64,000 nucleotides of DNA from Deltaproteobacteria bacterium UBA2409 (GCA_002343185.1 DDRT01000001.1:400215-464214); one strand, 5' to 3'; shown: positions 6,934 through 64,000, numbered from the stretch's first letter. Notes: generated from the sequence alone by a model not told the origin. Numbers and translations: made by a program.

Positions 6934-6950
6934 AAAGAAGTCTAGTACTA

Positions 6951-7063
6951 GTCTGGTCAGTCTTTCTTGTCCCCCGTAGCTTCAGCGGTGGGGGAAGACT
7001 GACCTTAGCCTTAAGGACTGGCTAAAGCCAGTCCAGACATAGATTAAAACCTGACCAGGCAGG
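6951..7063. repeat. Family-2 palindromic intergenic element (MITE/REP-like) with terminal inverted repeats GTCTGGTCAG … CTGACCAGGC.
   Basis: It contains the hairpins GGTCAGTCTT…AAGACTGACC and GGACTGGCTAAAGCCAGTCC plus the shared core CTTCAGCG. Related copies are at 51648-51739 and 35773-35858. It lies between convergent genes. Confidence 0.6.
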
Positions 7064-7068
7064 TAAAA

Positions 7069-30103: not shown

Positions 30104-30153
30104 CTTGGGGGTCAGGCCGGAAGGCCTGACCAGGCAAGGACTAGACTGGTCAG
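30104..30153. repeat. Family-1 palindromic element (one full unit plus a degenerate inverted partner).
   Basis: CTTGGGGGTCAGGCCGGAAGGCCTGACCAGG … CTGGTCAGGCTCCCCAAG. It lies between convergent genes. Confidence 0.7.
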
Positions 30154-30172
30154 GCTCCCCAAGTACTAACGA

Positions 30173-33855: not shown

Positions 33856-35711
33856 ACGACTATCTACTAGATGAAGAAGGTTATCAGGAACTTTATGAGA
33901 GATCCGTCAGGGATCCAGAAAATTTCTGGTCAGAGCAGGCTAGTTTGTTTTTAAGCTGGTTCAAGCCTTGGGAAAATGTTCTTAGATGGGATTATAAAAA
34001 AGGTCTTATTAAGTGGTTTGAGGGTGGAAAATTAAATGTTTGTTACAATTGTGTAGACAGGCATTTACCTAAAAGGGCCAATCAAGTTGCTATTCTTTGG
34101 GAGGGAAATGAACCTGGCGAAAATCGCTCAATCACTTATTTAGAGCTTAGTAAACTTGTTCAGAGATTTTCGAACGTTCTAAAAGATCACGGGGTTAAGA
34201 GAGGTGATCCAGTAATAATTTACATGCCAATGGTTCCTGAAGCAGCAATGGCAATGCTAGCTTGTGCCAGGATTGGCGCGGTGCATTCTGTGGTGTTTGC
34301 AGGGTTTTCTGCAGAGGCACTTAAAGATAGAATTTCAGATTCTGGAGCAAAACTTGTTATCACTGCCAACGAAGGACTTAGAGGAGATAAGGTAATTCCT
34401 TTAAAAAAGACTGTCGATGAGGCCAACCCCAAAAGAGTTTTAGTTTATAAAAGAACAAATTCTCCATGTGAAATGAAAGAAGGCAGGGATTTTTGGCTTG
34501 ATCTTGATTCCGCAAAAGATGGTTGTATGCCTGAAGAAATGGAGTCAGAGGATCCTTTATTTATTCTTTACACATCCGGCTCTACAGGTAAACCAAAAGG
34601 AGTGCTCCACACTCAGGCAGGTTATTTACTTTATACGGCGATGACCTTTAGATATGTGTTTGACTATAAGGATAGAGATATCCACTTTTGTGCTGCCGAT
34701 GTAGGTTGGATTACTGGACATAGCTATGTCGTGTATGGCCCCCTGGCTAATGGTGCAACGACTGTGATGTTTGAATCTATTCCAACGTATCCAGATCCAG
34801 GCCGATATTGGGATACAATAGAAAGGTTAAAAGCTAACACATTCTACACTGCTCCAACTGCTATAAGAGCGATTGCAAAAGAAGATAATAGCTTTGTAAC
34901 AAGGTACGATAGATCCTCTTTGAAAGTATTAGGCTCAGTCGGAGAGCCAATAAATAAAGACGCCTGGGAGTGGTATTCAGATGTTGTTGGTGAAGGGAGA
35001 TGTCCTGTGGTTGATACATGGTGGCAAACAGAGACGGGTGGAATATTAATTAGCCCATTACCTGGAGCGATTAAAACTAAACCTGGCTCTGCTACAAAGC
35101 CATTTTTCGGTATTAGACCAGCTTTACTTAAAGAAAATGGAGATCAGGTTTTAAACCCTGGTGAGGCGGGACGTCTTTGCATTGAATATCCATGGCCAGG
35201 TCAGGCAAGAACCGTTTGGGGAGATCATGAGAGATTTGTCTCTACTTATTTTTCTAGTTTCCCAGGATTTTATTTTACAGGTGATGCCGCAAAATTTGAT
35301 GAAGATGGTTATTTCTGGATCTCAGGACGAGTGGATGATGTTTTGAATGTGTCTGGTCATAGAATTGGAACAGCCGAGATTGAAAGTGCGATCGTTGCTT
35401 CTGGGATTGTTGCTGAAGCTGCAGTAGTTGGATTTCCACATGCAGTTAAAGGGGAGGGGATCTGTGCTTTTTGTATTCCAAAAGGAGAAGGAGACATTAA
35501 AGTTGTTATAGATTCCGTTGGAAAATTTATAGGAGGCTTTGCAAAACCTGATAAGGTAGTTTTTGTTTCAGGGCTACCTAAAACTAGATCGGGTAAGATT
35601 ATGAGGAGAATTTTGAGAAAGATTGCTTCTGGTGAAACTGAATCTTTAGGAGACACTTCAACTTTAGCTGATCCGTCAGTTGTTGAGGAATTACTCTGCA
35701 ATGTAAGTTAG
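33852..35711 (+). CDS. acs: Acetyl-CoA synthetase (AMP-forming acyl-CoA synthetase).
   Basis: AMP-binding signature [12 protein letters not shown], and later [13 protein letters not shown] and C-terminal [10 protein letters not shown]. Length 619 aa. Substrate (acetate versus propionate) is not resolvable by eye. Confidence 0.85.
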
Positions 35712-35886
35712 GGGTCAGGCTAGTTGAGGGTCAGGGCGAGAGGATAATGCCTGAGCAGGTTTTTAGACTTTAGGGACTGGTTTCCTACTTCGCCAACTTG
35801 TCCTTCGAAGCTTCAGCGAAGTAGGAGGCTATATAGGACAAGAAAGCCAGTCCAGACAAATTCTAGACTCTCCCGGCCTGACCCCC
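35711..35886. repeat. Composite repeat: a family-2 element (35773-35858) nested inside a split family-1 unit (GGGGTCAGGC … CTCCCGGCCTGACCCCC).
   Basis: Family-1 half-sites flank a core (GGGACTGG…CTTCGAAGCTTCAGCGAAGTAGGAGG…CCAGTCCAGACA) that matches the 6951 and 51648 elements. Confidence 0.65.
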
Positions 35887-35900
35887 ACAAGTAAGCGAAA

Positions 35901-36374
35901 CTAGTTATCTAGCTTTGACATTATTAGATCTGTAATATCCCCGTTCCCCTCACCAAAAAGTACAGGGCCTCTTGGCTGCTCACCTTTGTAAAGGACAAGA
36001 TCTATATCTTCTGATTTTGCATACGCCTCAATCTCTTTCATCGCTTTTTTTGTAAGCTCTTCGTTGAAGGCTGCAACCTGAGACTGGATAGAGTTTTCCG
36101 TTTCTTGAAAAAATTTACTCATTGCTCGTTGCTTCTCTTTAAAGGCTTTTATATCAGCTTCTTGTTTTGATTCACGCGCCTTCTTTTCTAGGGCAATTAA
36201 GGTAGCATTATCTTTCTCAAGCGAGGTTGTTGCAGCAGCAGATTTTTTATCAATCTCGGCACGCTTTACTTTCGCCTCTTTTGATTCATTTAAGATTCTA
36301 TTTATATCGACCGTAACAATCTTGTATTCGGCTAGTGAAAGGGTTGTTAACAGTAATAATGCAAGTATTCTCAT
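35901..36374 (-). CDS. skp: Skp/OmpH-like periplasmic chaperone.
   Basis: Signal peptide MRILALLLLTTLSLA, 157 aa, and a coiled-coil-rich K/E composition typical of OmpH. Confidence 0.55.
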   Translation of the reverse strand: MRILALLLLTTLSLAEYKIVTVDINRILNESKEAKVKRAEIDKKSAAATTSLEKDNATLIALEKKARESKQEADIKAFKEKQRAMSKFFQETENSIQSQVAAFNEELTKKAMKEIEAYAKSEDIDLVLYKGEQPRGPVLFGEGNGDITDLIMSKLDN

Positions 36375-36457: not shown

Positions 36458-36760
36458 TCACCCCTTTCTTGATTGAATAAGTTTATAGAGATGAGCTGCT
36501 AGTTTGTCTAATAGCTCAATAGTGTCTGTATTTGGATAGCTTAAGTCTAAAATAGCCTGACACTCTCTAAGAGAACCAAAAGCTATAGAGTAGAATCTTC
36601 TTTGATCAGGCCTTGTTTCTCTTCCTACCCCTTCAGCCAGATTAAGCACAATGCTAGAGGCAGCCCTTTTTAGCTGGTCAGCTAGATGTCTTGGAAGTGG
36701 CATAGCGGTTGCTTTTCGGTAAAACAAAACGGCGAGATTGTAAGTTCTAAAGTTTTTCAT
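36458..36760 (-). CDS. Four-helix-bundle protein ('23S rRNA intervening sequence protein' family; Avd-like).
   Basis: The 100-aa protein MKNFRTYNLAV…LNLAEG…FYSIAFGSLRECQ matches the conserved pattern of the TIGR02436/PF05635 family. Confidence 0.7.
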   Translation of the reverse strand: MKNFRTYNLAVLFYRKATAMPLPRHLADQLKRAASSIVLNLAEGVGRETRPDQRRFYSIAFGSLRECQAILDLSYPNTDTIELLDKLAAHLYKLIQSRKG

Positions 36761-36821: not shown

Positions 36822-36833
36822 GATTCCTTGTTT

Positions 36834-37133
36834 ATGAAAAACTTTAGAACTTACAATTTATCCGTTTCATTCTACCGAAGTGCAACAGCAATGCCACTTC
36901 CAAGCCCTCTTAAAGACCAGCTTAAAAGGGCTGCTCTGTCAGTGCCATTAAATCTGGCAGAAGGTAGAGGGAGAAGAACCAGAGCTGATCAGATAAGATT
37001 CTTCAGTATAGCGTTTGGATCAGTCAGAGAGTGCCAGGCTCTATTTGACATAGCTGATCTCAAAGATACAGATACTTATAGACTATTAGATAGCCTTGCA
37101 GCATCACTATATAAGCTAATCAAGAAGGGGTGA
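36834..37133 (+). CDS. Four-helix-bundle protein (paralog of 36458-36760, same family).
   Basis: MKNFRTYNLSV…LNLAEGRGRRT…FFSIAFGSVRECQ is roughly 60% identical to the divergent neighbour. The start is taken at the second Met after the SD. Confidence 0.7.
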   Translation: MKNFRTYNLSVSFYRSATAMPLPSPLKDQLKRAALSVPLNLAEGRGRRTRADQIRFFSIAFGSVRECQALFDIADLKDTDTYRLLDSLAASLYKLIKKG

Positions 37134-41829: not shown

Positions 41830-41934
41830 CGGGGGTCAGGCCGCCCTATTGTTGCTTCATCCGCTGGCGCGGATGATAGAACCCTGACCAGGCAAGCATT
41901 ACGTCTGGTCAGGCCTTCCGGCCTGACCCCCAAG
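41830..41934. repeat. Family-1 palindromic element, dimer with an extra internal hairpin (CATCCGCTGGCGCGGATG).
   Basis: GGGGGTCAGGCC…CCTGACCAGG … CTGGTCAGGCCTTCCGGCCTGACCCCCAAG. It overlaps the last ~9 codons of the convergent 376-aa ORF. Confidence 0.7.
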
Positions 41935-43039
41935 TAGAACTCGTTGCACCAAGAAAATTTTCAAGAACAACTAGCTCACTAGAATGTTGTATTGCCTTAG
42001 AACCTGTCACTAGGTTCTCACCCTCTTTAATAATTGTTCCATCTTTTCTGATAAAACATGGCATTAGAGGTGGCAGTTTTCTGAGTTCATCCAGTATTGC
42101 AATCATAATGGAATCATCAGGATCTTTTAGTTTTAATGCCTTTCTTCGGAGTTCTAAAACATAATAAAGACCCTCTTGGAAAAGTTCTCGTATTGAGTTG
42201 CTTGAACTAGCTTTTTCAAGAGCAATGTTAATGCAGCCTACTATAAACTCTTCACCGATTTTTATCTGTTCAATCTCATAAAAGGGCAGATTAAAATGTA
42301 CGACCAAAGCATTTAAAATAAGTGCCAATTCTTCTCGGTCATCATCCTTAAAGTTAACAAGGAGACCTGCACTAGCTTTAAGTTCAGATTTTGGTTCTTT
42401 AAATTTATCAATTTTTTTCGGGCTTATAACTTCGGATGCAAACTCAAGATCTGGGATTCCTTCCGCAGCGAGCCTTTTTAGTTTGTCCTGGTAGCTATCC
42501 TCTTCTAATGCACTGGGGGTTGAAACTGTTGGTATACTCAAAACTTGATAAAAAACTTCAGGACTTGTTTCAAATAGAAGAGCTAAAATTCGACCTAAGG
42601 CAAAAAACTTATCAGGGTCTTCATGAGAGATTAAAATCCATGTGTGTCCCTGATCTGGTGTGTAAAAGCCTGGTGCCGGCGGAGCATCCGTAGGTTCTTC
42701 GTTCGTTTCTACAGTAACGTAAGCCGATAGGATTAAAGACAGAACTTTAAGATCAATAACTTTCAGTATTTTTTGGAGGATTGAAAGCCCACCTTCATCA
42801 TCGTCTAAGAGTAGCCATGAAAAGAAATTTTCTTCGCTAACTTTATCTTTATTCCATAAATCTAAGTCCAAAAAAGTTCTGGTCTGCTCCAGAGTTGCGA
42901 GCATTATAAGCTCTACTGAGCTCTCAAGCCCTTGATCTTTTATGCAATAATATAGTGTCTGAGCAGGTAGCGATTTTACAACCACCTCTGGAGCTTCAGC
43001 TGAATAGATAGTGGTTATTAGATCTTTTGATTTTATCAT
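41909..43039 (-). CDS. Hypothetical protein (376 aa), translationally coupled downstream of infC.
   Basis: The start overlaps the infC stop by 1 nt. No recognisable motif. The C-terminal codons lie inside the repeat element. Confidence 0.45.
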   Translation of the reverse strand: MIKSKDLITTIYSAEAPEVVVKSLPAQTLYYCIKDQGLESSVELIMLATLEQTRTFLDLDLWNKDKVSEENFFSWLLLDDDEGGLSILQKILKVIDLKVLSLILSAYVTVETNEEPTDAPPAPGFYTPDQGHTWILISHEDPDKFFALGRILALLFETSPEVFYQVLSIPTVSTPSALEEDSYQDKLKRLAAEGIPDLEFASEVISPKKIDKFKEPKSELKASAGLLVNFKDDDREELALILNALVVHFNLPFYEIEQIKIGEEFIVGCINIALEKASSSNSIRELFQEGLYYVLELRRKALKLKDPDDSIMIAILDELRKLPPLMPCFIRKDGTIIKEGENLVTGSKAIQHSSELVVLENFLGATSSTWGSGRKA

Positions 43040-47470: not shown

Positions 47471-49657
47471 ATGTATAGAGTATTAGTAATTTTAATTATT
47501 TTAGCCTCTTCATTGATTGCAGAGGAGAAGAAAGACGAAAAGAAGTCAACAAATAGAATTTTGGTCTTATCTGATAAGGATCTTCTAAAAGTTGCTGGAG
47601 GTTCTGCAACACTGCTTGATGAGGAAGATCTTAAAGAAACAAAAGGAAGTGGTGATGATGTTCATCAGACACTAAAAAAAGTTCCTGGTGTTAACATCCT
47701 TGAAGAAGAAGGATATGGGCTAAGACCAAACATTAGTTTTAGAGGAACTCCACCTGAAAGAAGCAGAACAGTAACAATTATGGAAGATGGAGTTTTAAAG
47801 TCACCAGCTCCTTATACAGCACCATCAGCATACATTTTTCCAACATTTGGCCGAATGGAAGGACTTGAAATTCTAAAAGGGGCCTCTCAAATTAAGTATG
47901 GCCCTCAAACAATTGGCGGAAGTTTGAATATGCTCTCTGCAAAGATCCCTGAGGATCAGAGAATTTTTGCTCGCATTGAAGGTGGCGAAGATAGCTTCTT
48001 AAATGCTCATGCAAAATTTGGACAAGGATATGAAAACGGAGGATTCCTGCTTCAAGCATACGACACTCAAACTGATGGATTTAAAAAATTAGATAGCGGC
48101 GGTGACACAGGATTTGATCTAACTGACTTAATGGGTAAGTTTCAGATTAATACAGATAAGGCTGCTGATGTTTATCAGGAGCTTGAGTTTAAAGTTAACG
48201 ATATGACTCAAGATTCAGATGAGACATATCTTGGTCTTACAGAGAATGATTTTAGAGATGATCCATATAGACGTTATTCAGCAACTCAAAACGATAAGCT
48301 AGATATAAGTCAAGAATCATATCAATTAAGGCACTATATCCAGCCAAATGAATTAGTTGATCTAACAACTGTACTTTACAGAACAAAGTCTGCTCGTAAC
48401 TGGTACAAGTTAGATAAGGTTGGTGGAATAGGGCTCTCTGATATTATGAAGGATCCTTTAACTTATGCAGATCCATATTCTTGGATAACAGGAATGACTA
48501 GTCCTGATGATTCACTAGTAATTCGTGGAAATAACAGAAGATACGACTCAAAAGGCATACAATCTGTTCTTGGTGTTGAATTTGATACCGGATCAGTCGG
48601 CCATACAGTTGAGTTTGGTGCTAGGTATCACGAAGACGAAGAAGATCGTTTTCAAGCTGAGGACTCCTATAGAATGGAAAATGGCACTATGATCAGAACA
48701 AAACTTGGTGCTCCTGGTTCGCAGGAAAATCGTATTGGTGATGCACAGGCATGGGCATTCTTTCTTCAAGATACTCTTAAGCTAGATAAACTAACCCTGA
48801 CCCCTGGAGTTCGTTATGAACTTATCGACTACAGAAACCGTGATTTTGGAAAGCTTGATCCAACAAGAAGTGGATCAGCACTTACGACTTCAGAATCAGA
48901 AGTTGACGTAGTAGTGCCTGGGCTTGGCGCAACTTATGTTTTGACTGATTCTGTTTTACTTGTTGGTGGTGTTCATAAAGGGTTTGCCCCTCCAGGACCA
49001 CAGGCAACAAGTGATATTAAAGAGGAGGAAAGTGTAAATTATGAGGCAGGCCTTCGTTATGATAATCAGAGCTTATCTGGATCTTTAATCGGGTTTTTGA
49101 ACGATTATGACAATCTCTTAGGTGCTGATACTCTTGCTGCTGGTGGAACAGGTTCTGGAAATCTGTTTAACGCAGGTGAAGCAAGAAGCTACGGTGTTGA
49201 GACAGGCATTGGATACGATATTGGTAAATCTGCTAAACTTTCAGTAGGGCTGCCAGTATATGTTAGCTATACCTACACAAATGCTGAATTTAGAGATTCC
49301 TTTAATAGCTCACTTTTTGGCTCAGTTACTTCAGGAGATAAGCTGCCCTATATAGCTGAGAATCTTGTTTCAGTAGGAGTTGGGGTTGATTATCAGAAGT
49401 TCAAAGTTAGACTTGATGGACATTTCACTGATGAGATGCCTGTTATAGCTGGTCAAAGTGGACTTAGAACTGATGAGAAAACTGATGACAATTGGGTGTT
49501 TGACTTAGGTGCTTCATACGAAGTAGCTGAAGGAACAAGAGTTTTCTCAAAAGTAAGAAATCTCTTCGATGAAGAGTATGTTGCAGCTCGTCGACCTGCT
49601 GGAGCAAGACCAGGGCTTCCAACAACTGTGTTTGCAGGGATTGAGATAGACCTGTAG
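47471..49657 (+). CDS. TonB-dependent outer-membrane receptor.
   Basis: Signal peptide, plug domain (…VPGVNILEEEGYGLRPNISFRG…), and a long β-barrel region rich in alternating aromatic/Gly residues. Length 728 aa. Confidence 0.7.
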   Translation: MYRVLVILIILASSLIAEEKKDEKKSTNRILVLSDKDLLKVAGGSATLLDEEDLKETKGSGDDVHQTLKKVPGVNILEEEGYGLRPNISFRGTPPERSRTVTIMEDGVLKSPAPYTAPSAYIFPTFGRMEGLEILKGASQIKYGPQTIGGSLNMLSAKIPEDQRIFARIEGGEDSFLNAHAKFGQGYENGGFLLQAYDTQTDGFKKLDSGGDTGFDLTDLMGKFQINTDKAADVYQELEFKVNDMTQDSDETYLGLTENDFRDDPYRRYSATQNDKLDISQESYQLRHYIQPNELVDLTTVLYRTKSARNWYKLDKVGGIGLSDIMKDPLTYADPYSWITGMTSPDDSLVIRGNNRRYDSKGIQSVLGVEFDTGSVGHTVEFGARYHEDEEDRFQAEDSYRMENGTMIRTKLGAPGSQENRIGDAQAWAFFLQDTLKLDKLTLTPGVRYELIDYRNRDFGKLDPTRSGSALTTSESEVDVVVPGLGATYVLTDSVLLVGGVHKGFAPPGPQATSDIKEEESVNYEAGLRYDNQSLSGSLIGFLNDYDNLLGADTLAAGGTGSGNLFNAGEARSYGVETGIGYDIGKSAKLSVGLPVYVSYTYTNAEFRDSFNSSLFGSVTSGDKLPYIAENLVSVGVGVDYQKFKVRLDGHFTDEMPVIAGQSGLRTDEKTDDNWVFDLGASYEVAEGTRVFSKVRNLFDEEYVAARRPAGARPGLPTTVFAGIEIDL

Positions 49658-49756
49658 GTAAGCTGACTTGGGGGTCAGGCCGGGAGGCCTGACCAGACGT
49701 AGTGCTTGACTGGTCAGGCCTCCCGGCCTGACCCCCAAGTAGCCTGACCCCCAAAG
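49657..49756. repeat. Family-1 palindromic element, perfect inverted dimer plus an extra half-site.
   Basis: CTTGGGGGTCAGGCCGGGAGGCCTGACCAG-acgtagtgcttga-CTGGTCAGGCCTCCCGGCCTGACCCCCAAG-tag-CCTGACCCCCAAAG. It lies between convergent genes. Confidence 0.8.
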
Positions 49757-49757
49757 A

Positions 49758-51569
49758 CTAATTTATTTGTTCTTTAAAAATACTATCCACTAAGCTTCGC
49801 ATTACTGCCTCTTCATCTTGCCCGGATGCTCTTGAATTTTGAGTAGTTGGTCTAGAAGATACAAAACTTATTTCTAAAGTGTCGTCAGCTTTTTCAAATG
49901 AGATACTAAATAGCGAATCATCTGATACTTTAAATGGAGTTCTTGAAATCAACTGCCTAGTCCATCTCTCATTAGGAATTAATTTTACAGGCAGTCTATG
50001 ACCGTGATTTCTAAAGATAGCAGGAGATCGATTAAAAAGAAGTTGTCTGTACTCTTCCGAATTGTCAGCAAGAATATTTAATGCTTCTGTTCTTAGTAAC
50101 TCATCATATTTTGGCCTAAGCTTTGAGAGTACCTCATAAGTTAAAGCCTCATCTTCATTAATCTTAGCTTCATAGAGGTTATAAAAAGCTTGAGCATGAG
50201 CTCTTTGATCCAGGACTTTTTGTTTCTCTAATCTTGGAAGAATAAATGAACGTGGAATTGAGCTTAATAATCCTCCAAGTGTTGGGTACTCAAGCATTGA
50301 ATCAGTGTTTCTTATTTTCAGATCCTCAAAATCTCTAAGTGTTTCAATTAAAATCTGCTTTGCTTCACGTTCTAACCAATAGGCTCTTATGGATCTTTTT
50401 AAGTTGGCCCAAATCTCACTGGCTCTCTCAAGAATTGTGAGTTTGGTAGTTTTCACAATATTATTTTTGGCTCTTAAACTTTGGGCAAGTGATTGCATTA
50501 CCCCAGCCTGTAGATCTTCGATTGAAGTACCAATTTTCCCAAACCACTGCTTTTTTTCTAATGCCGCCTCAAAATGTTTTATGGCTCCATCAACATCACC
50601 TGAATAAAGTGCAACTCTTCCACGAGCTAGATGCACAAATGCTCTATGCTCTTCGCCATTTCTAAGTGGAAACTGAGCTACGCAGGCCTCAAAGTTATCA
50701 ATTGCTTTTTTTGCTCCCAGAAGATTTAGCTGATCCATATAGAGAAGTGCTAAATTCAATGCTGGTAAAATATGCTCACATCCATCCTGTTTACCTAAAG
50801 CTCTTGTGTAGGCGATCTCAGCATTTTTATCATCAAACATCTCCTCATAAACTTCACCCATATTGTTAAGCGGAGTAGCAGGATTTCCTAAACGTCCAAG
50901 TGATTCTTCAAGATCAATTGCAGCTTCAAAAATTGAAATAGATTCTTTTGGTTGCTGGTTCATTGAAAGTAGAATACCAAGCATATTTAAAGTTCTCCCG
51001 GGCTCAGCGCCTGACATAACTCCAGCTCTAGCAACTCTTATCGCATCTTGAATGTTTCCTAGTTTCATCATTATCCAGCTTCGTGAAGCAGGGTACCAGG
51101 CAGCCATATATCCATGTCTTGCAAACTCATCGAGCACCTCGAGCGCTTCTTGATAGAGATCTAAGTTTAGCTTCGATTGTGATCTAAGATTATAAAGGTG
51201 CATGTGAGTAGATTCTGTGAAGCTATCGTAATAGGGGGGTTCCCCAAACTGCTCATAAAATAAACTAAAAGCCTTTTCTACGTATCTTTCAGCAAGTCTA
51301 AAGTGTCCAACATAAGCCATATAATAGTGACCTAATAGACTATGTGCGCGGATATTCCTTGGATCTTTTTTGATAGCTTGAATAAGTCTGCTTCTCGCAT
51401 CAAGTGGTCTTTCATCCTGAAGAAGTGTAATTGCATCTAATAGAAGCTCATCAGCTGTTTTATCTTCAACAGGGATATTTTCATCAAAGCTTAAGTCAAA
51501 AGGATCAAATGGATCTTGGCAGAATCCATGAATGGTAAAAAGAAGAATCAGAATAACTTTTTTCACCAT
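49758..51569 (-). CDS. Secreted TPR-repeat protein (603 aa), last gene of the DUF58-transglutaminase operon.
   Basis: Signal peptide MVKKVILILLFTIHGFC, and multiple TPR-like helical repeats (AxxYxxLG…). The start overlaps the upstream gene stop by 7 nt. Confidence 0.5.
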   Translation of the reverse strand: MVKKVILILLFTIHGFCQDPFDPFDLSFDENIPVEDKTADELLLDAITLLQDERPLDARSRLIQAIKKDPRNIRAHSLLGHYYMAYVGHFRLAERYVEKAFSLFYEQFGEPPYYDSFTESTHMHLYNLRSQSKLNLDLYQEALEVLDEFARHGYMAAWYPASRSWIMMKLGNIQDAIRVARAGVMSGAEPGRTLNMLGILLSMNQQPKESISIFEAAIDLEESLGRLGNPATPLNNMGEVYEEMFDDKNAEIAYTRALGKQDGCEHILPALNLALLYMDQLNLLGAKKAIDNFEACVAQFPLRNGEEHRAFVHLARGRVALYSGDVDGAIKHFEAALEKKQWFGKIGTSIEDLQAGVMQSLAQSLRAKNNIVKTTKLTILERASEIWANLKRSIRAYWLEREAKQILIETLRDFEDLKIRNTDSMLEYPTLGGLLSSIPRSFILPRLEKQKVLDQRAHAQAFYNLYEAKINEDEALTYEVLSKLRPKYDELLRTEALNILADNSEEYRQLLFNRSPAIFRNHGHRLPVKLIPNERWTRQLISRTPFKVSDDSLFSISFEKADDTLEISFVSSRPTTQNSRASGQDEEAVMRSLVDSIFKEQIN

Positions 51570-53674
51570 CTTCTTTTAAACCACCAGTTGAAAATAGATT
51601 TTAGGTTGAACAGAGATCTAAATGTTTCAAATTTTGAAAGATTGAGACCTGTCTGGACTGGCTTTCCTATCCTACGTAGTTTTAGCGAAGTAGGAAGCCT
51701 GTCCTTAGTAAAGGTCAGTCTAAAGACTGACCAGACAGGATTTTTGTTTTTATACTTTTCTTCATTCAATAATTTTATAAACTCTTCGAGATCGGAACCA
51801 TGAGATTTACGAACTCTTTTAATAAAGTTTAAGCGAGTTTCCCCATAGTTTCGTTTAAATCCTATGTCCATAAGTTTAGCAAAGACTCCAATTTTAAGAA
51901 GGGATGGGAATAGTAAATACCCCTTCAGTAATAAGATCTTAGATAAAACAACAAAGAAGAATAATGTCGCAAACATGATTACTAATGCTGGCTTTAGCCA
52001 GGCAAATGAAAACGAAGTACTTTCGGAGTCTTTTTTAGCTGGAAGTTCAGGAACTAGCTCTTCAGCAGGGTTAACAAGATTCATAAGCTCTTCAAGTAAA
52101 CCTTGATCGACCTCAGTATCAGCATGGCTTTCAACCTGAAGGGGCTGTGTATCAAAGGCTATCCACCCATAGTCTTGAAAATAAACTTCGGCCCATGCGT
52201 GTCTGTCGCTCATTCTAAGTAATATATGTCCATCTTTAGCTTGGCTTAAGTCAGTAAGGTATCCAGTAGCGATTCTAGATGGAATTCCAATTGCACGAAG
52301 CAGATAAACAGTTGCATGGGCAATATGAACGCAGTACCCACGACCATCCCCAAAAAGATAAGGTGCAACTGGATCGTCCGATGCAGGATGGTTTGGAGTA
52401 AGAGTATAAATTGTAAACTGTGCAAGGTAATCCACGATTCTTTTAATAGAATCAAACGGAGTAGGGGAGTCAGCAGTAATTTTTTTTGCTAGCTCGTGAT
52501 ACCTGGGATCTGTGTGTGCTGCTAAGTAGTTTGCACGTTTATTGTTGTCCCAAAGTGGATCTCCGACTGGTGTGTTTCTTAGAGTTTCAAGCTTTAAGCC
52601 TAACGAAAATGAGAGTGCTCTATAGGCGCCACCTTTAAATCTTCCAGGATTAGGATTTTTGAGCGGGGTTAAAAGTTTTGGATAATCAATCGCAAATGGA
52701 TTTTTATGATCTGCTAAAAGATAGATCTCTTGGGTTAACTCAGATCTACTTATCACTTCCTTTCTAACTTGAGAAAATGAAACGCTTGGCGAATCTCGGC
52801 TTATATCATCGTCAATGCCACTTAAAACAAGCTCTTTACCATTATACTTTGAAAGTGCTGACTCTCTTAGATAAAGCATAGGCGATGTAGGGTTCATCGT
52901 ATAATCACTTTCAAGCCTTACAAGTCCTGCTGGTTGATTTGTGCTGCCTAAAGCTGATTCAAATGTTAGTGGGCTTAACCCTTCTTCTGAGCCTTGGCCA
53001 ACACCGTTACTAAAAAAGGCTTCTCCTTTTTCCTGATAGTATCTTGAGATTCCAAAGAATGAGAGATAGCCGATAAGTAGAAAAATAAATGTTGATAAGA
53101 AGATTCCAAATATTGAAAGTCGCTTGGAAATAGCAGCTCTTTGGTCATTAAATTGTCTAACAGAAAGCGCTCCATATATGACAGCTAGTAATGCCACGAT
53201 AACTCCAAATGCTGAAAATGTTGTTAGTGGAGAAACTCCTAACTGCCAGGAGAGATCATTTATAATTTTCGGCATATCAAGTTGTAGATTTCTGTGAGTA
53301 GCTAAAGAGCCAACTACAACCGTCAGTATCAGTCCAAGCTCTACTAAAAATGCAGCTCTATATTTTTTAACTGCCCAAGTTAGAATGAAAGTTAAAAAGA
53401 AGATAAACATTACTGCTTGAAGATGTAAGAATATGGAGTATGACTTTAAACTTGAATTTCCAAAGAGAGCTAAGATTAGGCCAACCAAGTTGATTGATAG
53501 GGCTCCTCCGATTGTTGTTATTAACAAAACACCAAGTAATTTTAGGTTAGAGGCTCTGCTGCCAACTATAACTCCACCTAAGATTCCAATCGATAGAATG
53601 GCAGGGTGAGTCCCGAATGGAAGCACAAAGTCCACTGCAACTATTGCCATTGTTAGAAGGAGAAAGCGCATCAC
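51563..53674 (-). CDS. Transglutaminase-like membrane protein (DUF3488 / TGase core architecture).
   Basis: Multi-TM N-terminus, and a TGase catalytic triad context (GRGYCVHIAHATVYLLRAIGIP … DRHAWAEVYF … WIAFD). The last ~60 codons run through the family-2 repeat at 51648-51739. Confidence 0.7.
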   Translation of the reverse strand: MMRFLLLTMAIVAVDFVLPFGTHPAILSIGILGGVIVGSRASNLKLLGVLLITTIGGALSINLVGLILALFGNSSLKSYSIFLHLQAVMFIFFLTFILTWAVKKYRAAFLVELGLILTVVVGSLATHRNLQLDMPKIINDLSWQLGVSPLTTFSAFGVIVALLAVIYGALSVRQFNDQRAAISKRLSIFGIFLSTFIFLLIGYLSFFGISRYYQEKGEAFFSNGVGQGSEEGLSPLTFESALGSTNQPAGLVRLESDYTMNPTSPMLYLRESALSKYNGKELVLSGIDDDISRDSPSVSFSQVRKEVISRSELTQEIYLLADHKNPFAIDYPKLLTPLKNPNPGRFKGGAYRALSFSLGLKLETLRNTPVGDPLWDNNKRANYLAAHTDPRYHELAKKITADSPTPFDSIKRIVDYLAQFTIYTLTPNHPASDDPVAPYLFGDGRGYCVHIAHATVYLLRAIGIPSRIATGYLTDLSQAKDGHILLRMSDRHAWAEVYFQDYGWIAFDTQPLQVESHADTEVDQGLLEELMNLVNPAEELVPELPAKKDSESTSFSFAWLKPALVIMFATLFFFVVLSKILLLKGYLLFPSLLKIGVFAKLMDIGFKRNYGETRLNFIKRVRKSHGSDLEEFIKLLNEEKYKNKNPVWSVFRLTFTKDRLPTSLKLRRIGKPVQTGLNLSKFETFRSLFNLKSIFNWWFKRRW
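51648..51739. repeat. Family-2 palindromic element with perfect terminal inverted repeats CCTGTCTGG … CCAGACAGG. It is embedded in the 3' end of the transglutaminase-like ORF.
   Basis: It shares the GGACTGG…AGCGAAGTAGGA…GGTCAGTCT…AGACTGACC architecture with the 6951 and 35773 elements. Confidence 0.65.
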
Positions 53675-55020: not shown

Positions 55021-56769
55021 TCAAGTGCCAAGCCCATTCATTTTCAATAAATCCCTAACCCTCTTTTTAAGAGGTAAAGATTCTTTAAAAACTCTTATTT
55101 TGCCCCCAGTTTCATTAGATTCAAAAACAGTAATGATAACTTTTCTATGAGATGGCATAACATCTTTAAAAGTCACAAAGCTCTTATTTTTAAATGACTT
55201 TTTTTGGATAGCTAGTGTTCGGATTTTAATCTCAGCATGCAAACCCTTAGCTAAATGGTTCGATCTAACAATCTGAATTCTGCCTGCTCTCTTTAGACTG
55301 CTGAATTTTAATCTTACCTCGAATGGATCGGCATGGATGGTTGGAGTCGGAATAGGAGAATTGGTATATGTTGGTGAATTGGTGGGGGTCGGTGAGCTGG
55401 ATGGTGTTGGGGAGTTGGTGGGTGAAACCGAGGTCGGAGTATTAGTAGGAGTTGACGTAGAAGTTGCTGGAAGATTAGTAGGGGTTGCTGTTCTGGTATG
55501 GGTTGGCGTTCTAGTAGGAGTAGCCGTTGCTGGAAGAATTGTTGGAGTTGGGGTTGCTGTAGCTGGAAGAGTTGTTGGAGTTGGAGTCGCTGTTGGCGTC
55601 CCCTCGCTTACACTTGCAAGACAAGAGCTATAGTTGTTATCCGCTAAAAACGAATTCCATGCATTCAAGCTCGCAGTGCTATATTCTCGGTCATTTCCAG
55701 TTGCTCCTGGAGACATTACGTATTGAGTTGGCTCTGAGTCGTGTCCACCAGTGCTTGCATTATATGCACTTAGAGTGTGAAACATTTCATGTTCGATAAT
55801 ACTAGCATTTCCAGCAATCGTACTGTAGTAGGTTATACTTCCTCCGCTGTTTGAACCAGTTTCTTGAACATGGCATACCATGGACATCGAATTAAATGGT
55901 AACCAAGTCATTAGCGCATAACCGATTGGCCCACTGCTGTAGTTTCCAAGTATAATGTGATTCAGATCTGAGATAATATTATATGTTGAAATATAGGATT
56001 TAAGAGAATTTACATTGGCAGTTATGTCCGTTCCTCCTGTAAAAGGTGAAGTAGTCGGGTTGAATGTTATCGAAAGGACATTAATTGTTGCTCCCAATCT
56101 TGTACGAATTCGCGCATCAACATGATTGATATATTGAAGCAGTAAATTTTCTGAATCTTGTCCCCATCGTTGATGATATTCAGGGGTGGTAAAAAATCTC
56201 ATTTCAATCTCTCTTAGATCGCCCCCATTCATTGTAGAAAAACCAGGATTGATATGAACATGATTATAGTTAGGGAGGCTCTCTGGGGAGTCAGATACAG
56301 GAACGTTCAAGGGGTGAGAAATAACTTTAATTTTGTCGATATGATTTTTTTTACTCAGCTTTTTATTTTCTGCAAACTTGATCGTAATTTGGCATACTCT
56401 ACTTTTGTTGCACCCTTCGTAGCTTGTTGTAATCCTGTATCCTTTCTTGCGCTTCTCAATAGCAATCCCAACGGGATAGTATTTCTTTTCTCTCCCTATT
56501 CTCTTAATAACTAAACCTTGAGCTAGGGCGATGTTTTCAATCGAACGAATCGTCGAGAAACGATTTGCTTCTATTGTTATATTGCCTCTCCCAGAAAATC
56601 TTTTTAATTTTCTATTACGTCCTAGTACTTTCATCAAAAGGGAAGTTGAGTTTGCTGATACAGTGTTTGTCCGCTCAAGTTTGCTTTTTAGGTTGGGGCT
56701 GATTAGTACTATCGGATCAGCATGGGCAACTAGTGAAAACATTAGCAGCACTACAAAGACTTGCCTCAT
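55021..56769 (-). CDS. Secreted zinc metallopeptidase (HExxH) with a Thr/Pro-rich linker and a C-terminal domain.
   Basis: Signal peptide [17 protein letters not shown], zincin motif [10 protein letters not shown], roughly 90-aa linker ([20 protein letters not shown]…), and a C-terminal ~100-aa basic domain. Confidence 0.5.
55340..55615. repeat. Low-complexity tandem-like codon repeats encoding the Thr/Pro linker.
   Basis: Reiterated ACN-CCN codon units. The + strand antisense reads as a spurious Gly/Val ORF. Confidence 0.6.
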
Positions 56770-60763: not shown

Positions 60764-60834
60764 CAATTTATGATTTTTCCAAAGTTTGATGTGAGCAAAT
60801 TCAAGTACTTAGCATATAAAAATGATTAAAGAAG

Positions 60835-60864
60835 ACGAAAAAACTTGCACAAAAAATTGTGCAG
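60835..60864 (-). terminator. Rho-independent terminator-like hairpin for the upstream (disrupted) gene.
   Basis: Minus strand: CTGCACAA-tttt-TTGTGCAAG followed by TTTTTTCG. Confidence 0.4.
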
Positions 60865-60899
60865 TTGGTTGAAGAAATTGAGCGATTAACAGATCGATC

Positions 60900-61680
60900 T
60901 TAGTGAGGGACTAATCCTTAAGTTTACTCATTAGCTCTTCTCTAAAGCTATCAATCCAATATTGTTTTACGTTCTCATCAAGATGTAAGACTGACCCTTC
61001 CCCATGTTTTTCTTTTAGATATGCTCTTTATCCCTCAAACATAAGATCCCCAACTCGATTAACTTCGGCTTCGACTGCCTCAATCCCGTTATTGTCCTTT
61101 GTACCGGGCAGAGTATAGTAATCCTTACCAGTCACAAGTTTAAAAGCGGTGTCATAGCACCTTGAGCTATTTGTTATTGTCATTTTATGGACTGGACCTT
61201 CATGAGTTTCGATAATAGCGGATTCATCCGGCCGGTCGCTAACATCTTTTATCTTGGCTCTACGTAGATCGTTTGCATAATTTATAGCTTTTTTAACATA
61301 TAATTCATCAATATCGTTTCCGAGCCCTGAAGAAGATCTAAAGATCTCGATATTCCGATCATCAATTTTTTTGACTTCTTCTACTAACCTATCTTTAATA
61401 CTTGGGACACGAGCAACAAAAATACGCTCTTCCTCTGATAGAGATCCTCCACCTGTTTCAAGGCGAGCATGCAGTGAAGTAAGTCTCTCTTGAATTAATT
61501 CACGAAGGTCAAGAATCTGCTCTTTTTTGTTTTAGTAGAGTCTGACTCTCCCCCAGCAACTTCTCTTAGTACTTTTATAACCGCATCTAGTTTTTCAACG
61601 TCTAAAGTAATGAGAGAGTAATCTCCCATGCACTTAGCTAGATCAGTAACTTTAGGAGTATTCTCTATCATGGTCCTCTA
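60900..61680 (-). pseudogene. Coding remnant interrupted by at least two frameshifts. No intact ORF of 60 aa or more, although protein-like translation continues across three frames.
   Basis: Manual translation, minus strand: MIENTPKVTDLAKCMGDYSLITLDVEKLDAVIKVLREVAGGESDSTKTKK then a frame change (at the A-run AAAACAAAAAAG), then NKKEQILDLRELIQERLTSLHARLETGGGSLSEEERIFVARVPSIKDRL…EAEVNRVGDLMFEG then another frame change, then RAYLKEKHGEGSVLHLDENVKQYWIDSFREELMSKLKD*. The upstream 62-aa track ORF (61652-61840) may be part of the same unit. Confidence 0.4.
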
Positions 61681-61935
61681 AGCATATGAGCTCGATAAAT
61701 CGCTCTAAGTTCTCTATCTCATTAATGGCGATTAGAATTTTTTGTATATCCTCATCCACTTTAGATGATATGCTCAAAAAATCTATATCAGTGTCTTTAA
61801 AGGATAAAACTTTCCCAATTTGAGAGTTTTTCTTATACACCCCTACTGTAGCTCTAAGTATAACTAGGAAAATCTTCTACACCTTACTAATCACTTTCAT
61901 CATTTTGAAAGTCTCAAGCGCTTAAATGTTCAGGT

Positions 61936-62493
61936 ATGGCAGTATTAGGCCGACAAAACCAACTAAGAATGAGTCAACGTGGCACCACAAGTAGTGTTTT
62001 TATAACTCAATGCCTAGTATTCATTGCAGCTTCCTTTTTAGTTACCTCAGCAAGAGAACAAGATCAAAGAATACAAAATCTGGATGCTTTGTTGCGAGTT
62101 GGTGGTGTCGGTAGTCTATATAGAGGGGAAAATGACCCGTCTCTTCCTAGCTCATTTGGTGGAGAGGGGCTTTGTTTTGCAGAAGTATTTGTTGATGATG
62201 CGACAAAGGATATAAGTATCGAGAGAACACAAGGCACTTGCCCTCAGTCAGAGTTAATTGAGGATCTGGTTATACAAAGAGTTTTAGAGTTTCCACACGG
62301 CCACTCTATGTTAGTTTTTGATCAAACTTTAGGGGTCCATACTGGTTTAATATTAGAGATGGCAGGGAGCATAAGTCAGAGATTAGTTGGACAGATGAGT
62401 GGAGCAATCGCTCTGCCAGGTGGCAATGTGTATCCAGGAGGAGGCCAGCAGATCCAAAACCCAGGGGAGGCTATACCTGGAATACCATCTTGA
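61936..62493 (+). CDS. Hypothetical secreted/membrane-anchored Gly-rich protein (185 aa).
   Basis: N-terminal hydrophobic segment VFITQCLVFIAASFLVTSA. The C-terminus is Gly/Pro-rich. Confidence 0.35.
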   Translation: MAVLGRQNQLRMSQRGTTSSVFITQCLVFIAASFLVTSAREQDQRIQNLDALLRVGGVGSLYRGENDPSLPSSFGGEGLCFAEVFVDDATKDISIERTQGTCPQSELIEDLVIQRVLEFPHGHSMLVFDQTLGVHTGLILEMAGSISQRLVGQMSGAIALPGGNVYPGGGQQIQNPGEAIPGIPS

Positions 62494-62495
62494 GA

Positions 62496-62729
62496 TTACT
62501 CAGGGCAAAGCTCAGGATCGCAATTTGATTCACATTTAAGACATAAATCAGAGCCTGAAAAAGTTTCACGAACATTTTCTTCTCTTCTTTGAAAAGCACC
62601 AAATAAAAACAAAGCTGCTAATGTCATCACTACAAGAATAAGTACAAATGCTAAAACTGATTCTGGAATAACAGCGCCGAGTTGTTTATCCGACTGGAGT
62701 GGCTTTATTGTCCCCCGTAGTTTTTTCAC
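62496..62729 (-). CDS. Small single-pass membrane protein (77 aa). Candidate Flp-family pilin-like protein with a Cys-rich C-terminal tail.
   Basis: Leader MKKLRGTIKPLQSDKQLG, then AVIPESVLAFVLILVVMTLAALFLFGAF (Gly before a hydrophobic helix, with Glu at +5 as in Flp/type-IV pilins), then CLKCESNCDPELC. 4-nt ATGA overlap with the upstream 409-aa gene. Confidence 0.3.
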   Translation of the reverse strand: MKKLRGTIKPLQSDKQLGAVIPESVLAFVLILVVMTLAALFLFGAFQRREENVRETFSGSDLCLKCESNCDPELCPE

Positions 62730-63955
62730 AATACTTGCATCGTATAAGTTAGATAGTTTCTGTAAAAGTTTAACGCCCTATCGTAAATATTAGGCTTAAT
62801 ATCAGGATTATATAAAAGATCCCGCCAAAATCTATTTACCTCGCTAGGTTTATACTCTCCTGTGCCAGGGTCGTAGCTATTCTGACAGTAGCTAGGATAT
62901 ATGAACTCTCCAGATTCATTTCTTTCACATGGTTCAATACTTAAGACTGAATTTAAACCAGGTCTACCAAGTTGATTATTTTCAAGGAGATCTTTGAGCT
63001 CAGTTGCTTCACTTAATTTTGTCATGCTGTATGGGAAGAGCACTAACCTGATAGGTCTTATTGGTCCTGCACTTCCGACAATGTTAGGAGTGCTAGTTTG
63101 GTACCATTCTCCAAGCTCTCTTACTAATCTAGAGGTTAGGTTGTGAGCAACTAAGATCAAGATTGGAAAATCGTTAATTCTATCTAGTTTATCCTGACCC
63201 TCAAATATTGAAATACTACCAGGCGCGACTGGGCCAAGAGCTCCAGGGTTACTAAGAGCCGATCCCCCTGACCAATACTGGGCTAGTCCTTTTATATCAG
63301 GGTCTATTCGTACGTCTTGTGTTTCTTTGCAGAACATATCTAAAAGAGAGCTGCGGTAAGGGCATAATCTAAGAGCACCTATCTGTGATAAGAGCTCCGA
63401 TGCTGTTACAGGAGGTATAATTTCTCCATCATATTGCCAGGAAATCTCAGATTGATTGATCTCAAACTCGGTTGCAGCGTTAAAGTTTGTAGGCTCTGTG
63501 ATTCTAGATACAGAGTATGGGGAGTTAAAAGGTTTGCCCCCACTAGCATAGAGATGAGTACACTGAGGGATCTGAGCTAATGTTAAAGCTCGAACCTCTT
63601 CGGCTCCTGTTGCTGCTGTAAGATTACCTCCAAGGCTTATTTTATTTAAAATCCCATTGATTTCATAATCATAACCTGAAACTTTGAACCCTCTGTAGTT
63701 AATGAGCGAGTACGGTGCTCTAAATGATTGTTTTGTTAAGTCCATGCCCTTCTCTACTGCCAAAGTTGGTGGCACGTTAAAGTCACCACTTTCTCCATCG
63801 ACTGTACTGTTTACAAACAGGACTTCAGTCGAATGTCTAAATCGTCCATCTCGGGCCAAAATTTCCATTAATGCAGATAGAAATGCATTTCTAACCATTG
63901 CAACTGGGTTAAGGCACGATTCTTTTCTGGCTGTAACTTCCGGAGGTTCTCCCAT
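62726..63955 (-). CDS. Hypothetical protein (409 aa or more; the N-terminus may extend beyond the annotated start toward the window end).
   Basis: Long clean ORF with no recognisable motif. Co-directional with, and overlapping, the small Cys-tail membrane protein. Confidence 0.45.
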   Translation of the reverse strand: MGEPPEVTARKESCLNPVAMVRNAFLSALMEILARDGRFRHSTEVLFVNSTVDGESGDFNVPPTLAVEKGMDLTKQSFRAPYSLINYRGFKVSGYDYEINGILNKISLGGNLTAATGAEEVRALTLAQIPQCTHLYASGGKPFNSPYSVSRITEPTNFNAATEFEINQSEISWQYDGEIIPPVTASELLSQIGALRLCPYRSSLLDMFCKETQDVRIDPDIKGLAQYWSGGSALSNPGALGPVAPGSISIFEGQDKLDRINDFPILILVAHNLTSRLVRELGEWYQTSTPNIVGSAGPIRPIRLVLFPYSMTKLSEATELKDLLENNQLGRPGLNSVLSIEPCERNESGEFIYPSYCQNSYDPGTGEYKPSEVNRFWRDLLYNPDIKPNIYDRALNFYRNYLTYTMQVL

Positions 63956-64000
63956 ATAACCTGTGGATTTTCTTGTTGTGAGGCTTGGAAGAGTAAGTTC

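What the first reader, a model, noticed from the sequence alone, without database searches (positions are those of the whole stretch)
51648..51739. Second repeat family with perfect terminal inverted repeats (MITE-like), one copy embedded in the 3' coding end of the transglutaminase-like gene
Elements at 6951-7063, 35773-35858 and 51648-51739 share the architecture GGACTGG…CTTCAGCG/AGCGAAGTAGGA…GGTCAGTCT…AGACTGACC. The 51648 copy is bounded by perfect TIRs CCTGTCTGG / CCAGACAGG. It lies inside the last ~60 codons of the 703-aa transglutaminase-like ORF (minus strand), so the annotated C-terminal tail (…LNLSKFETFRSLFNLKSIFNWWFKRRW) is encoded by repeat DNA. This suggests an insertion at the TGase/TPR gene junction that created or replaced the C-terminus and produced the overlap with the downstream TPR gene. 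That would be a non-autonomous mobile element remodelling an operon junction.
Basis: partly seen in the sequence, partly recalled or inferred. Interest (0 to 1): 0.6.

Follow-up and report, generated by a model that had tools for sequence, protein, structure and literature searches.

The report
Palindromic repeat inserted in-frame in a gene
A 92-base hairpin-forming repeat that normally sits just after genes has landed inside the end of a transglutaminase-like gene, where it adds about 30 disordered amino acids without altering the conserved C-terminus; this kind of event is already known in other bacteria.

Summary
The repeat is real. Window 51648-51739 has perfect 9-nt terminal inverted repeats and folds into a Y shape (z about -5 to -6). 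It belongs to a modular hairpin family with three more copies in the window and ten in a related metagenome organism.

The tail LNLSKFETF...FNWWFKRRW lies outside the repeat, on 51566-51646. It is conserved in orthologs that lack the element and, more loosely, in homologs of about 40% identity. The 4-7 nt TGase/TPR overlap is also present without the element.

What happened is an in-frame insertion of about 90 nt (30 codons, residues 647-676) into a length-variable linker. AlphaFold2 predicts that linker as disordered.

The insertion is old. A lineage 25% diverged in protein shares the same junction, orientation and frame. A sister ortholog reads the same DNA in a different frame, and another has lost most of the element.

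Eleven of 13 other copies lie 5-68 nt after the stop of a codirectional ORF. This is the only one of 14 copies spanned by a long (at least 80-aa) ORF.

The closest analogues are intragenic REPs and Rickettsia palindromic elements. I rate it a new member of a known kind, of modest interest.

The parts
51648..51739 (+). Repeat element, oriented by its module 1; it is antisense to the host gene. It runs from inverted repeat to inverted repeat and is translated on the minus strand as residues about 646-676 of the TGase-like protein.
51648..51656 (.). Left terminal inverted repeat CCTGTCTGG. The family consensus is (Y)TGTCTGG.
51655..51704 (+). Module 1 hairpin, GGACTGGCTTTCCTATCCTACGTAGTTTTAGCGAAGTAGGAAGCCTGTCC. 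This is the conserved core of the family.
   Evidence: nhmmer E = 1e-17. The consensus structure has 17 pairs, 5 of them with compensatory changes across 8 copies.
51713..51732 (.). Hairpin A, GGTCAGTCT-AA-AGACTGACC. It encodes WSVFRLT on the minus strand.
51731..51739 (.). Right terminal inverted repeat CCAGACAGG.
51563..53674 (-). Host gene: a TgpA-like membrane transglutaminase-like protein of 703 aa.
   Evidence: Pfam Transglut_core 8e-25 and a weak TgpA_N match; 521 homologs.
51566..51646 (-). Conserved native C-terminal tail LNLSKFETFRSLFNLKSIFNWWFKRRW. It is not repeat DNA.
   Evidence: Conserved in P0002-P0005 and loosely at 40% identity. Predicted helices 681-689 and 692-698.
51563..51569 (-). 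ATGGTGA overlap of the TGase stop codon and the TPR start codon.
   Evidence: The same 7-nt overlap occurs in element-free L001 and in L008; a 4-nt overlap occurs in L004 and L007.
49758..51569 (-). Downstream TPR gene, 603 aa.
6949..7067 (+). Intergenic family copy: module 1 variant, GGACTGGCTAAAGCCAGTCC hairpin and linker module. It starts 20 nt after the stop of a codirectional ORF, in a convergent intergenic region.
35772..35858 (-). Intergenic family copy, the long form of module 1. It is nested between arms of the G+C-rich repeat family and starts 46 nt after the stop of a codirectional ORF.
62692..62723 (+). Truncated copy, comprising the 5' half of module 1.
   Evidence: (D6).

Best explanation
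A copy of a REP/MITE-like family of modular, nested palindromes landed inside the 3' part of the TgpA-like transglutaminase gene. The family has (Y)TGTCTGG/CCAGACA(R) ends, a roughly 50-nt module 1 hairpin and smaller GGTCAG...CTGACC hairpins. Its usual place is the untranslated DNA just after stop codons. The insertion was about 90 nt (30 codons) and carried no stop codon in the frame used. It hit a linker of variable length between conserved C-terminal helices, so it was tolerated as a disordered loop. The native C-terminus and the translationally coupled junction with the TPR gene stayed intact. The event predates the split of lineages that now differ by about 25% in this protein. Since then the insert has been remodelled by indels. 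One ortholog keeps only hairpin A and the ends. One keeps only a vestige. One reads module 1 in another frame and carries an extra linker module. Shown: the family, its structure and covariation, the empty and filled sites, the conserved tail and overlap, the shared junction, the frame difference and the predicted disorder. Inferred: that the family is or was mobile, by an unknown transposase; that the insert is translated; and that it is essentially neutral passenger sequence.
For: Family and structure: (5 of 17 pairs with compensatory changes). Usual location: 11 of 13 other copies lie 5-68 nt downstream of a codirectional ORF's stop, and this is the only copy of 14 spanned by a long (at least 80-aa) ORF. 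Insertion versus empty site, conserved tail and overlap. Same junction, orientation and frame in the window and P0003, and a different frame in P0002. Age: in the shared 13 codons, 12 amino acids are identical with 5 synonymous codon changes, against 54% codon change at identical residues gene-wide; the three lineages are about 25% apart. Disorder: pLDDT is below 50 for residues 643-646 and 648-674, flanked by confident helices. The frame used is the only open one on the coding strand. The sequence is identical in two independent assemblies. Intragenic REPs encoding 20-30 aa and RPE in-frame fusions are documented (PMC3733652, PMC10969869).
Against: No target-site duplication could be defined. 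No transposase was found among 20 window ORFs scanned, so mobility is inferred from dispersal and the empty site only. The empty site comes from a lineage 25% diverged whose linker also differs on the upstream side, so the insertion boundaries are good only to a few nucleotides. The trichotomy (window+P0002, P0003+P0004, P0005) does not show whether P0005 is pre-insertion or a clean loss. Translation of the insert is not demonstrated.
Confidence: 0.8

Rival explanations
1. The linker is a hot spot that took independent insertions, or gene conversion from other genomic copies, in different lineages rather than one ancestral insertion.
For: P0002, the window's sister at 90% identity, has a different module make-up. 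It carries an extra linker-type module like those beside module 1 in L131, L135, L136 and window copy A. Its hairpin A is decayed and module 1 is in another frame. P0003 and P0004 are 93% identical yet differ by 19 aa here.
Against: The downstream junction CCAG(A/G)CA + NNN + ...TCAAAATT(T/C)GAA is shared by the window, P0002 and P0003, and the orientation is the same in all. The window and P0003 share frame and peptide, with synonymous divergence close to the gene-wide level. Indels within a single insertion explain the data more simply.
Confidence: 0.12
2. The insert has been co-opted. Either the peptide WSVFRLTF(T/S)KDRL is functional, or the stable mRNA hairpin about 80 nt upstream of the TPR start tunes the relative expression of the TGase and TPR genes. 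This is compatible with the main explanation of its origin.
For: Between lineages 25% diverged there is 1 amino-acid change against 5 synonymous changes in 13 codons, while the gene as a whole differs at 25% of residues. Hairpin A pairs are 17 of 18 conserved. The mRNA-sense fold is -42 kcal/mol, z = -6.4.
Against: The sample is only 13 codons and the test was chosen after seeing the data. P0002 has destroyed hairpin A and shifted the frame of module 1. P0004 and P0005 do without it. The insert is predicted disordered. The peptide has no relatives among 1.84 billion cluster representatives.
Confidence: 0.15
3. One reading: the insertion created or replaced the C-terminal tail by read-through and generated the overlap with the TPR gene.
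For: Only the position of the element near the 3' end of the ORF.
Against: The tail and the overlap are conserved in orthologs without the element and in distant homologs. The tail is not repeat DNA.
Confidence: 0.02
4. Chance similarity or an assembly artefact.
For: None.
Against: There are 4 pattern hits against 0.00 expected. Ten more copies occur in another organism. Pairs covary. The sequence is identical in two assemblies.
Confidence: 0.01

Closest known systems
Intragenic REPs (GTAG- and CGTC-tagged palindromic repeats; Di Nocera et al. 2013, PMC3733652)
   Same: They are short palindromic repeats, mostly next to the 3' ends of ORFs in convergent or unidirectional intergenic regions. 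They are often grouped or dimeric. A minority lie wholly inside ORFs and encode 20-30 extra amino acids. All of this is seen here.
   Different: The defining unpaired GTAG or CGTC tag at one end of the stem is not evident. A GTAG occurs here in the apical part of module 1, not at the hairpin foot. The units are longer and more nested. No RAYT gene is in view.
Rickettsia palindromic elements (RPE; Ogata et al. 2000, as summarised in PMC10969869)
   Same: A palindromic repeat is inserted in-frame in a protein-coding gene, giving a translational fusion that leaves the host fold intact. The insert sits in a loop-like region.
   Different: RPEs are about 150 bp, carry a conserved open reading frame, and nearly half of the copies are intragenic. 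Here 1 of 14 copies is spanned by a long (at least 80-aa) ORF. Most copies have stops in most frames. The same DNA is read in two different frames in sister orthologs. Sequence similarity to RPEs was not compared directly.
Modular bacterial MITE-like repeats (BOX, ERIC, Correia/NEMIS; BIME mosaics of E. coli). This comparison rests on general knowledge and PMC10969869.
   Same: They are small non-autonomous repeats with inverted-repeat ends and strong hairpins. Their modular or mosaic composition varies between copies. Occasional intragenic copies contribute peptides.
   Different: There is no sequence relationship: no Rfam hit and no plasmid or phage hit. No target-site duplication and no parent insertion sequence were identified.
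REPINs (inverted REP doublets mobilised by RAYTs; Bertels & Rainey 2011, from general knowledge)
   Same: The companion G+C-rich family in the window occurs as inverted doublets that fold into one long hairpin, for example 49657-49754. It shares the CTGGTCAG/CCAGAC junction motif with this family.
   Different: The RAYT association cannot be tested on 79 kb of this genome.

Membership tests
MITE (classical) | Terminal inverted repeats | tested here: met
   A perfect 9-nt inverted repeat in this copy. A (Y)TGTCTGG / CCAGACA(R) consensus across copies.
MITE (classical) | Target-site duplication flanking the inverted repeats | tested here: not met
   No consistent direct repeat flanks 14 copies. 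The flanks of this copy, CC/GG, extend the inverted repeat rather than forming a direct repeat.
MITE (classical) | Small, non-coding and present in multiple dispersed copies | tested here: met
   Elements are 60-130 nt. There are 4 copies in 64 kb and 10 more in a related organism. Most frames are closed.
MITE (classical) | A parent autonomous insertion sequence with the same inverted repeats | not testable with these tools
   Only 79 kb of the genome was reachable. No transposase was found among 20 ORFs scanned. There were no plasmid, phage or viral matches.
REP / REPIN | Short imperfect palindromes forming hairpins, with selection on pairing | tested here: met
   Fold z-scores of -3.2 to -6.4. 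Five of 17 pairs show compensatory changes.
REP / REPIN | Extragenic location, mostly just 3' of ORFs in convergent or unidirectional spacers | tested here: met
   Eleven of 13 extragenic copies lie 5-68 nt after the stop of a codirectional ORF.
REP / REPIN | An unpaired GTAG (or CGTC) tag at one end of the stem | tested here: not met
   CGTAG is conserved but lies in the apical region of module 1, not at the foot of a stem. Some G+C-rich units end in AAGTAG on the 3' side, which is not the canonical 5' position.
REP / REPIN | An associated RAYT (Y1 transposase) gene flanked by the repeats | not testable with these tools
   None was found in the window ORFs scanned. The rest of the genome is not available.
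Rickettsia palindromic elements (RPE) | In-frame insertion in a protein-coding gene with the host protein kept intact | tested here: met
Rickettsia palindromic elements (RPE) | The element carries a conserved ORF or peptide and is frequently intragenic | tested here: not met
   One of 14 copies is spanned by a long (at least 80-aa) ORF. Stops occur in most frames. Two frames are used in sister orthologs. The peptide has no relatives elsewhere.
Rickettsia palindromic elements (RPE) | Sequence homology to RPE-1 to RPE-10 | not tested
   No RPE sequences were at hand. There was no Rfam hit at gathering or E <= 1.

The most novel reading that the evidence does not exclude
The element-derived segment is no longer a passenger. 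The peptide WSVFRLTF(T/S)KDRL, or the stable hairpin it encodes in the mRNA about 80 nt before the coupled TPR start, has been under purifying selection since before lineages 25% diverged split, and contributes to the function or expression of the DUF58-TGase-TPR operon. A related hint is that the same reading frame of module 1 also supplies the first 12 codons (KKLRGTIKPLQS, compare KLRRIGKPVQT) of a putative 77-aa membrane protein at 62496-62729(-). The family may therefore repeatedly donate coding sequence.
Probability: 0.12. Interest if true: 0.5.

Novelty: new member of a known kind. Interest (0 to 1): 0.3.

Why it matters
It adds a clean, datable example of a palindromic intergenic repeat being absorbed into a coding sequence. 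The organism is an uncultured lineage, possibly Oligoflexia-like. The empty, full, partly deleted and frame-shifted states are all preserved in related genomes. That series shows how such inserts are tolerated: they sit in a disordered linker, keep the length a multiple of three and avoid stop codons. It also shows how they decay.

The practical value is for annotation. The tail and the operon junction are native. The extra 30 residues are repeat-derived and should not be mistaken for a domain. The repeat family itself is undescribed in Rfam but is of a familiar type.

Tried and rejected
1. The genome-contig scan with GGTCAGTCTN{2,30}AGACTGACC was a poor choice.

2. The peptide search in the word-indexed protein database failed twice on parameters and then returned 'no candidate', although P0001 contains the query. 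This is uninformative.

3. The HMMER search of the 36-aa insert against 1.84 billion representatives found only P0001, the representative of the window protein's own cluster, and three unrelated repeat proteins.

4. Organism identification was attempted by cluster look-up and with methylmalonyl-CoA mutase homologs. The only name was 'Oligoflexia bacterium' at 75% identity, which is a weak hint only.

5. Rfam gave nothing at gathering threshold or at E <= 1. Plasmids, phages and viral contigs gave nothing.

6. Edge-walking with two window-edge ORFs found no record. Two other ORFs added 15 kb with no new module 1 copy.

7. No consistent target-site duplication was found.

8. No intrinsic terminator was found in the coding direction of the element.

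9. I considered and rejected three ideas: that the tail is read-through of repeat DNA, that the element produced the gene overlap, and that this is an assembly artefact.

Full report
**Observation**

CCTGTCTGG and CCAGACAGG are perfect 9-nt terminal inverted repeats. They close a Y-shaped structure of two hairpins:
- Module 1 lies at 51655-51704.
- Hairpin A, GGTCAGTCT..AGACTGACC, lies at 51713-51732.

The 111-nt stretch folds at -44.2 kcal/mol on the + strand and -42.2 on the - strand. The z-scores are -5.4 and -6.4, and no shuffle of 200 folds as well.

The copies at 6951-7063 and 35773-35858 share the architecture. I derived a 27-nt pattern from the conserved 5' part of module 1: CTGGWSWGKYTTTMNTRTCCNNCGTAG. 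It hits four places in the window against 0.00 expected by shuffling. Two independent JGI assemblies are identical to the window over 4.1 kb around the element, so it is not an assembly artefact.

**The family**

The same pattern found ten exact matches in metagenome contigs of assemblies ERZ761607 and ERZ761602. The flanking genes of those loci show no nucleotide similarity to the window. Only the repeats match, at 80-97% identity, and both this family and the window's G+C-rich family are present.

The elements are mosaics of hairpin modules, each bounded by CTGG(A/T)C(A/T)G ... C(A/T)G(A/T)CCAG. The modules seen are:
- module 1, about 50 nt;
- small GGTCAGGTT-GAAA-AACCTGACC or GGTCAGTCT-type hairpins;
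- a TCCGCTGGCGCGGA hairpin nested in loops;
- a recurrent linker, CCTGGTCAGGTTTTAATCTATGTCTGG.

The outer ends are (Y)TGTCTGG / CCAGACA(R).

Eight short-form module 1 copies give a consensus hairpin of 17 pairs, 5 of which show compensatory double changes. An example is CCTCC/GGAGG, CCTAC/GTAGG and CCCCC/GGGGG. The pairing itself is therefore under constraint, as expected for REP- or MITE-type repeats.

Rfam has nothing at gathering threshold or at E <= 1. The annotated plasmid and phage collections and the viral contigs have nothing either.

**Where the copies sit**

All ten metagenome copies are outside ORFs. Of the 13 copies other than the TGase copy, 11 have the 5' end of module 1 only 5-68 nt downstream of the stop codon of a codirectional ORF. 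Many of these lie in convergent spacers.

The TGase copy is the only one of 14 spanned by a long (at least 80-aa) ORF, and it is antisense to that ORF. Intergenic copies carry stop codons in most frames. The TGase copy is open in only one frame on the coding strand, and that is the frame used.

The 703-aa ORF 51563-53674(-) is a TgpA-like membrane transglutaminase-like protein (Transglut_core 8e-25). It lies in a DUF58-TGase-TPR arrangement.

Protein homologs at 86, 74, 74 and 74% identity (P0002 to P0005), and many at about 40%, were aligned. The tail ...LSKFE..FN.KS.FNWWFKRRW is conserved in P0002-P0005. A looser NPxSVF...RW tail persists at 40% identity.

The repeat encodes (P)VWSVFRLTFTKDRLPTSLKLRRIGKPVQTG, residues about 646-676. 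The 27-residue tail is encoded by the following non-repeat DNA at 51566-51646.

The overlap of the TGase stop with the TPR start is also independent of the element:

| Locus | Element state | Overlap |
|---|---|---|
| L001 (P0005) | none | 7 nt |
| L008 (P0002) | present, remodelled | 7 nt |
| L004 (P0004) | vestige | 4 nt |
| L007 (P0003) | partial | 4 nt |

**What did happen**

Codon-level comparison shows a linker of variable length between the conserved LNE.KY and LSKFE motifs. Measured from the conserved Y to KFE, its length and element content are:

| Protein | Linker length (aa) | Element content |
|---|---|---|
| Window | 39 | Full element |
| P0002 | 43 | Module 1 in a different frame, decayed hairpin A, extra linker-type module |
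| P0003 | 39 | Same ends, hairpin A in the same frame (IWSVFRLTFSKDRL), interior of module 1 deleted |
| P0004 | 20 | Short vestige only |
| P0005 | 14 | None (empty site) |

In P0005 the site reads AAT CCT | AAA | TTA AAA TTC TCT AAA. In the window it reads AAT CCT | 30 codons GTC TGG ... ACA GGT | CTC AAT CTT TCA AAA. This is an in-frame insertion of about 90 nt.

P0003 has the same downstream junction, CCAGACA + NNN + T(C/T)T... TCAAAATT(T/C)GAA, and the same orientation as the window. P0004 is 93% identical to P0003.

P0002 is the window's sister at 90% identity. It reads GGA CTG GCT TCC... where the window reads GAC AGG CTT CCT.... Its extra module resembles those beside module 1 in L131, L135, L136 and window copy A.

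The gene tree has three lineages about 25% apart: window+P0002, P0003+P0004, and P0005.

**Age and constraint**

Between the window and P0003, 54% of codons for identical residues differ across the whole gene, and 25% of residues differ. In the shared 13 element-derived codons, 12 residues are identical and 5 of those codons carry synonymous changes.

Synonymous divergence in the insert is therefore about that of the gene. This argues that the insert was already present in the common ancestor. It has evolved like constrained coding sequence in these two lineages.

Thirteen codons examined post hoc are too few to claim function. P0002, P0004 and P0005 show that the segment is dispensable or freely remodelled.

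**Structural context**

An AlphaFold2 model built from a 58-sequence alignment has mean pLDDT 77.9. It gives pLDDT below 50 for residues 643-646 and 648-674, which is the insert. Confident helices flank it at 630-641, 681-689 and 692-698. The insert is thus a disordered loop in the C-terminal region after the last predicted long helices.

A HMMER search of the 36-aa insert against 1.84 billion cluster representatives found only P0001, the representative of the window protein's own cluster, and three unrelated repeat proteins. The peptide is not a recurrent protein module.

**Mechanism and its limits**

The most likely account is that a REP/MITE-like palindromic repeat, normally tolerated just 3' of genes, was once inserted into this linker. 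It survived because its length kept the frame, the frame was open and the site was structurally permissive.

Mobility is inferred from three things: dispersal, presence in two organisms and the empty site. No target-site duplication could be defined. No transposase was found among the 20 window ORFs scanned. Only 79 kb of this genome could be reached.

Whether the strong hairpin in the mRNA, about 80 nt before the coupled TPR start, has any effect is untested. There is no terminator-like U-run in the coding direction.

**Comparison with known systems**

Intragenic REPs that encode 20-30 amino acids are documented in several phyla. So is the strong preference of REPs for the 3' side of ORFs (PMC3733652). 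Rickettsia palindromic elements are the classic case of in-frame fusions (PMC10969869).

This element behaves like those, but I do not file it as a GTAG/CGTC REP because no tag lies at the stem foot. I do not file it as an RPE either: there is no conserved ORF, intragenic copies are rare, and two reading frames are used. I do not file it as a classical MITE, because no target-site duplication or parent insertion sequence was found.

**Verdict**

It is a new member of a known kind. The finding is real, but the more dramatic reading (a new C-terminus and a remodelled operon junction) is wrong. Interest is 0.3.

The only hint is 'Oligoflexia bacterium' at 75% identity for a housekeeping enzyme. 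The single genome-contig scan was wasted on an unspecific palindrome pattern.

Noticed in passing
window 11851-11882, 25918-25983, 30102-30165, 41831-41938, 49657-49754: A companion G+C-rich repeat family, GGGGGTCAGGCC-NNNN-GGCCTGACC. It often occurs as inverted doublets that fold into one long hairpin, like REPINs. All copies lie in spacers at gene 3' ends. The family shares the CTGGTCAG / CCAGAC junction motif with the family studied and co-occurs with it in the ERZ761607 organism.
   Followed up: partly
window 35700-35905: The 35772-35858 copy is nested between arms of the G+C-rich family (GGGGTCAGGC...GGGTCAGGGCGAGAGG ... CTCTCCCGGCCTGACCCCCA). The repeats therefore insert into, or recombine with, each other.
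   Followed up: no
window 35772-35858; L128 5673-5757; L130 7025-7111: A long form of module 1 looks like a forward-reverse-forward inverted triplication of the short form. It gives two interleaved, mutually exclusive stems: CTTGTCCTTCGTAGCT/AGCTACGAAGGACAAG and CCTACTCCGCTAA/TTAGCGGAGTGGG. The MFE and centroid folds choose different ones.
   Followed up: partly
window 62496-62729 (-), truncated repeat at 62692-62723: A 77-aa ORF with a clear hydrophobic helix starts at a GTG overlapping the stop of the upstream gene. Its first roughly 12 codons (KKLRGTIKPLQS) are encoded by the truncated module 1, in the same frame as the TGase insert (KLRRIGKPVQT). The gene is called in the JGI annotation. 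This may be a second case of the repeat contributing coding sequence, or a mis-called start.
   Followed up: partly
window about 60800-64000 and beyond (L139 8900-12900) versus L140: The block carrying the 185-aa, 77-aa and 694-aa genes lies between the flagellin gene and the CDP-alcohol phosphatidyltransferase neighbourhood. It has no called counterpart at the syntenic position in the P0002 organism, judged from the called-gene tables only. It is therefore a strain- or species-specific indel, with the truncated repeat inside it.
   Followed up: no
window 36458-36760 (-) and 36828-37133 (+): Two divergent paralogous genes of the '23S rRNA-intervening sequence protein' family (PF05635, E about 1e-16 each). 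They form a 102-nt, 83% complementary inverted repeat with 71 nt between the arms (I1, 51).
   Followed up: partly
window 51740-51751 (+): On the + strand, antisense to the TGase gene, the closing stem of the element is followed directly by ATTTTTGTTTTT. This gives a terminator-like look. On the coding strand the same bases are the Lys/Asn codons AAA AAC AAA AAT. P0003 also has an A-run (GGC AAA AAA AAT) at this position.
   Followed up: no
window 55445-55573: Three roughly 33-nt direct repeats (70-76% identical) lie inside ORF 55021-56769(-), which has a weak Reprolysin_5 metallopeptidase match (D4, 29).
   Followed up: no
L020, L023, L040, L048, L057, L080 (Ilumatobacter sp. MAG OFTM217): Six different contigs of one MAG matched the GGTCAGTCT...AGACTGACC palindrome pattern in the otherwise random genome scan. 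This suggests an unrelated high-copy palindromic repeat in that genome.
   Followed up: no
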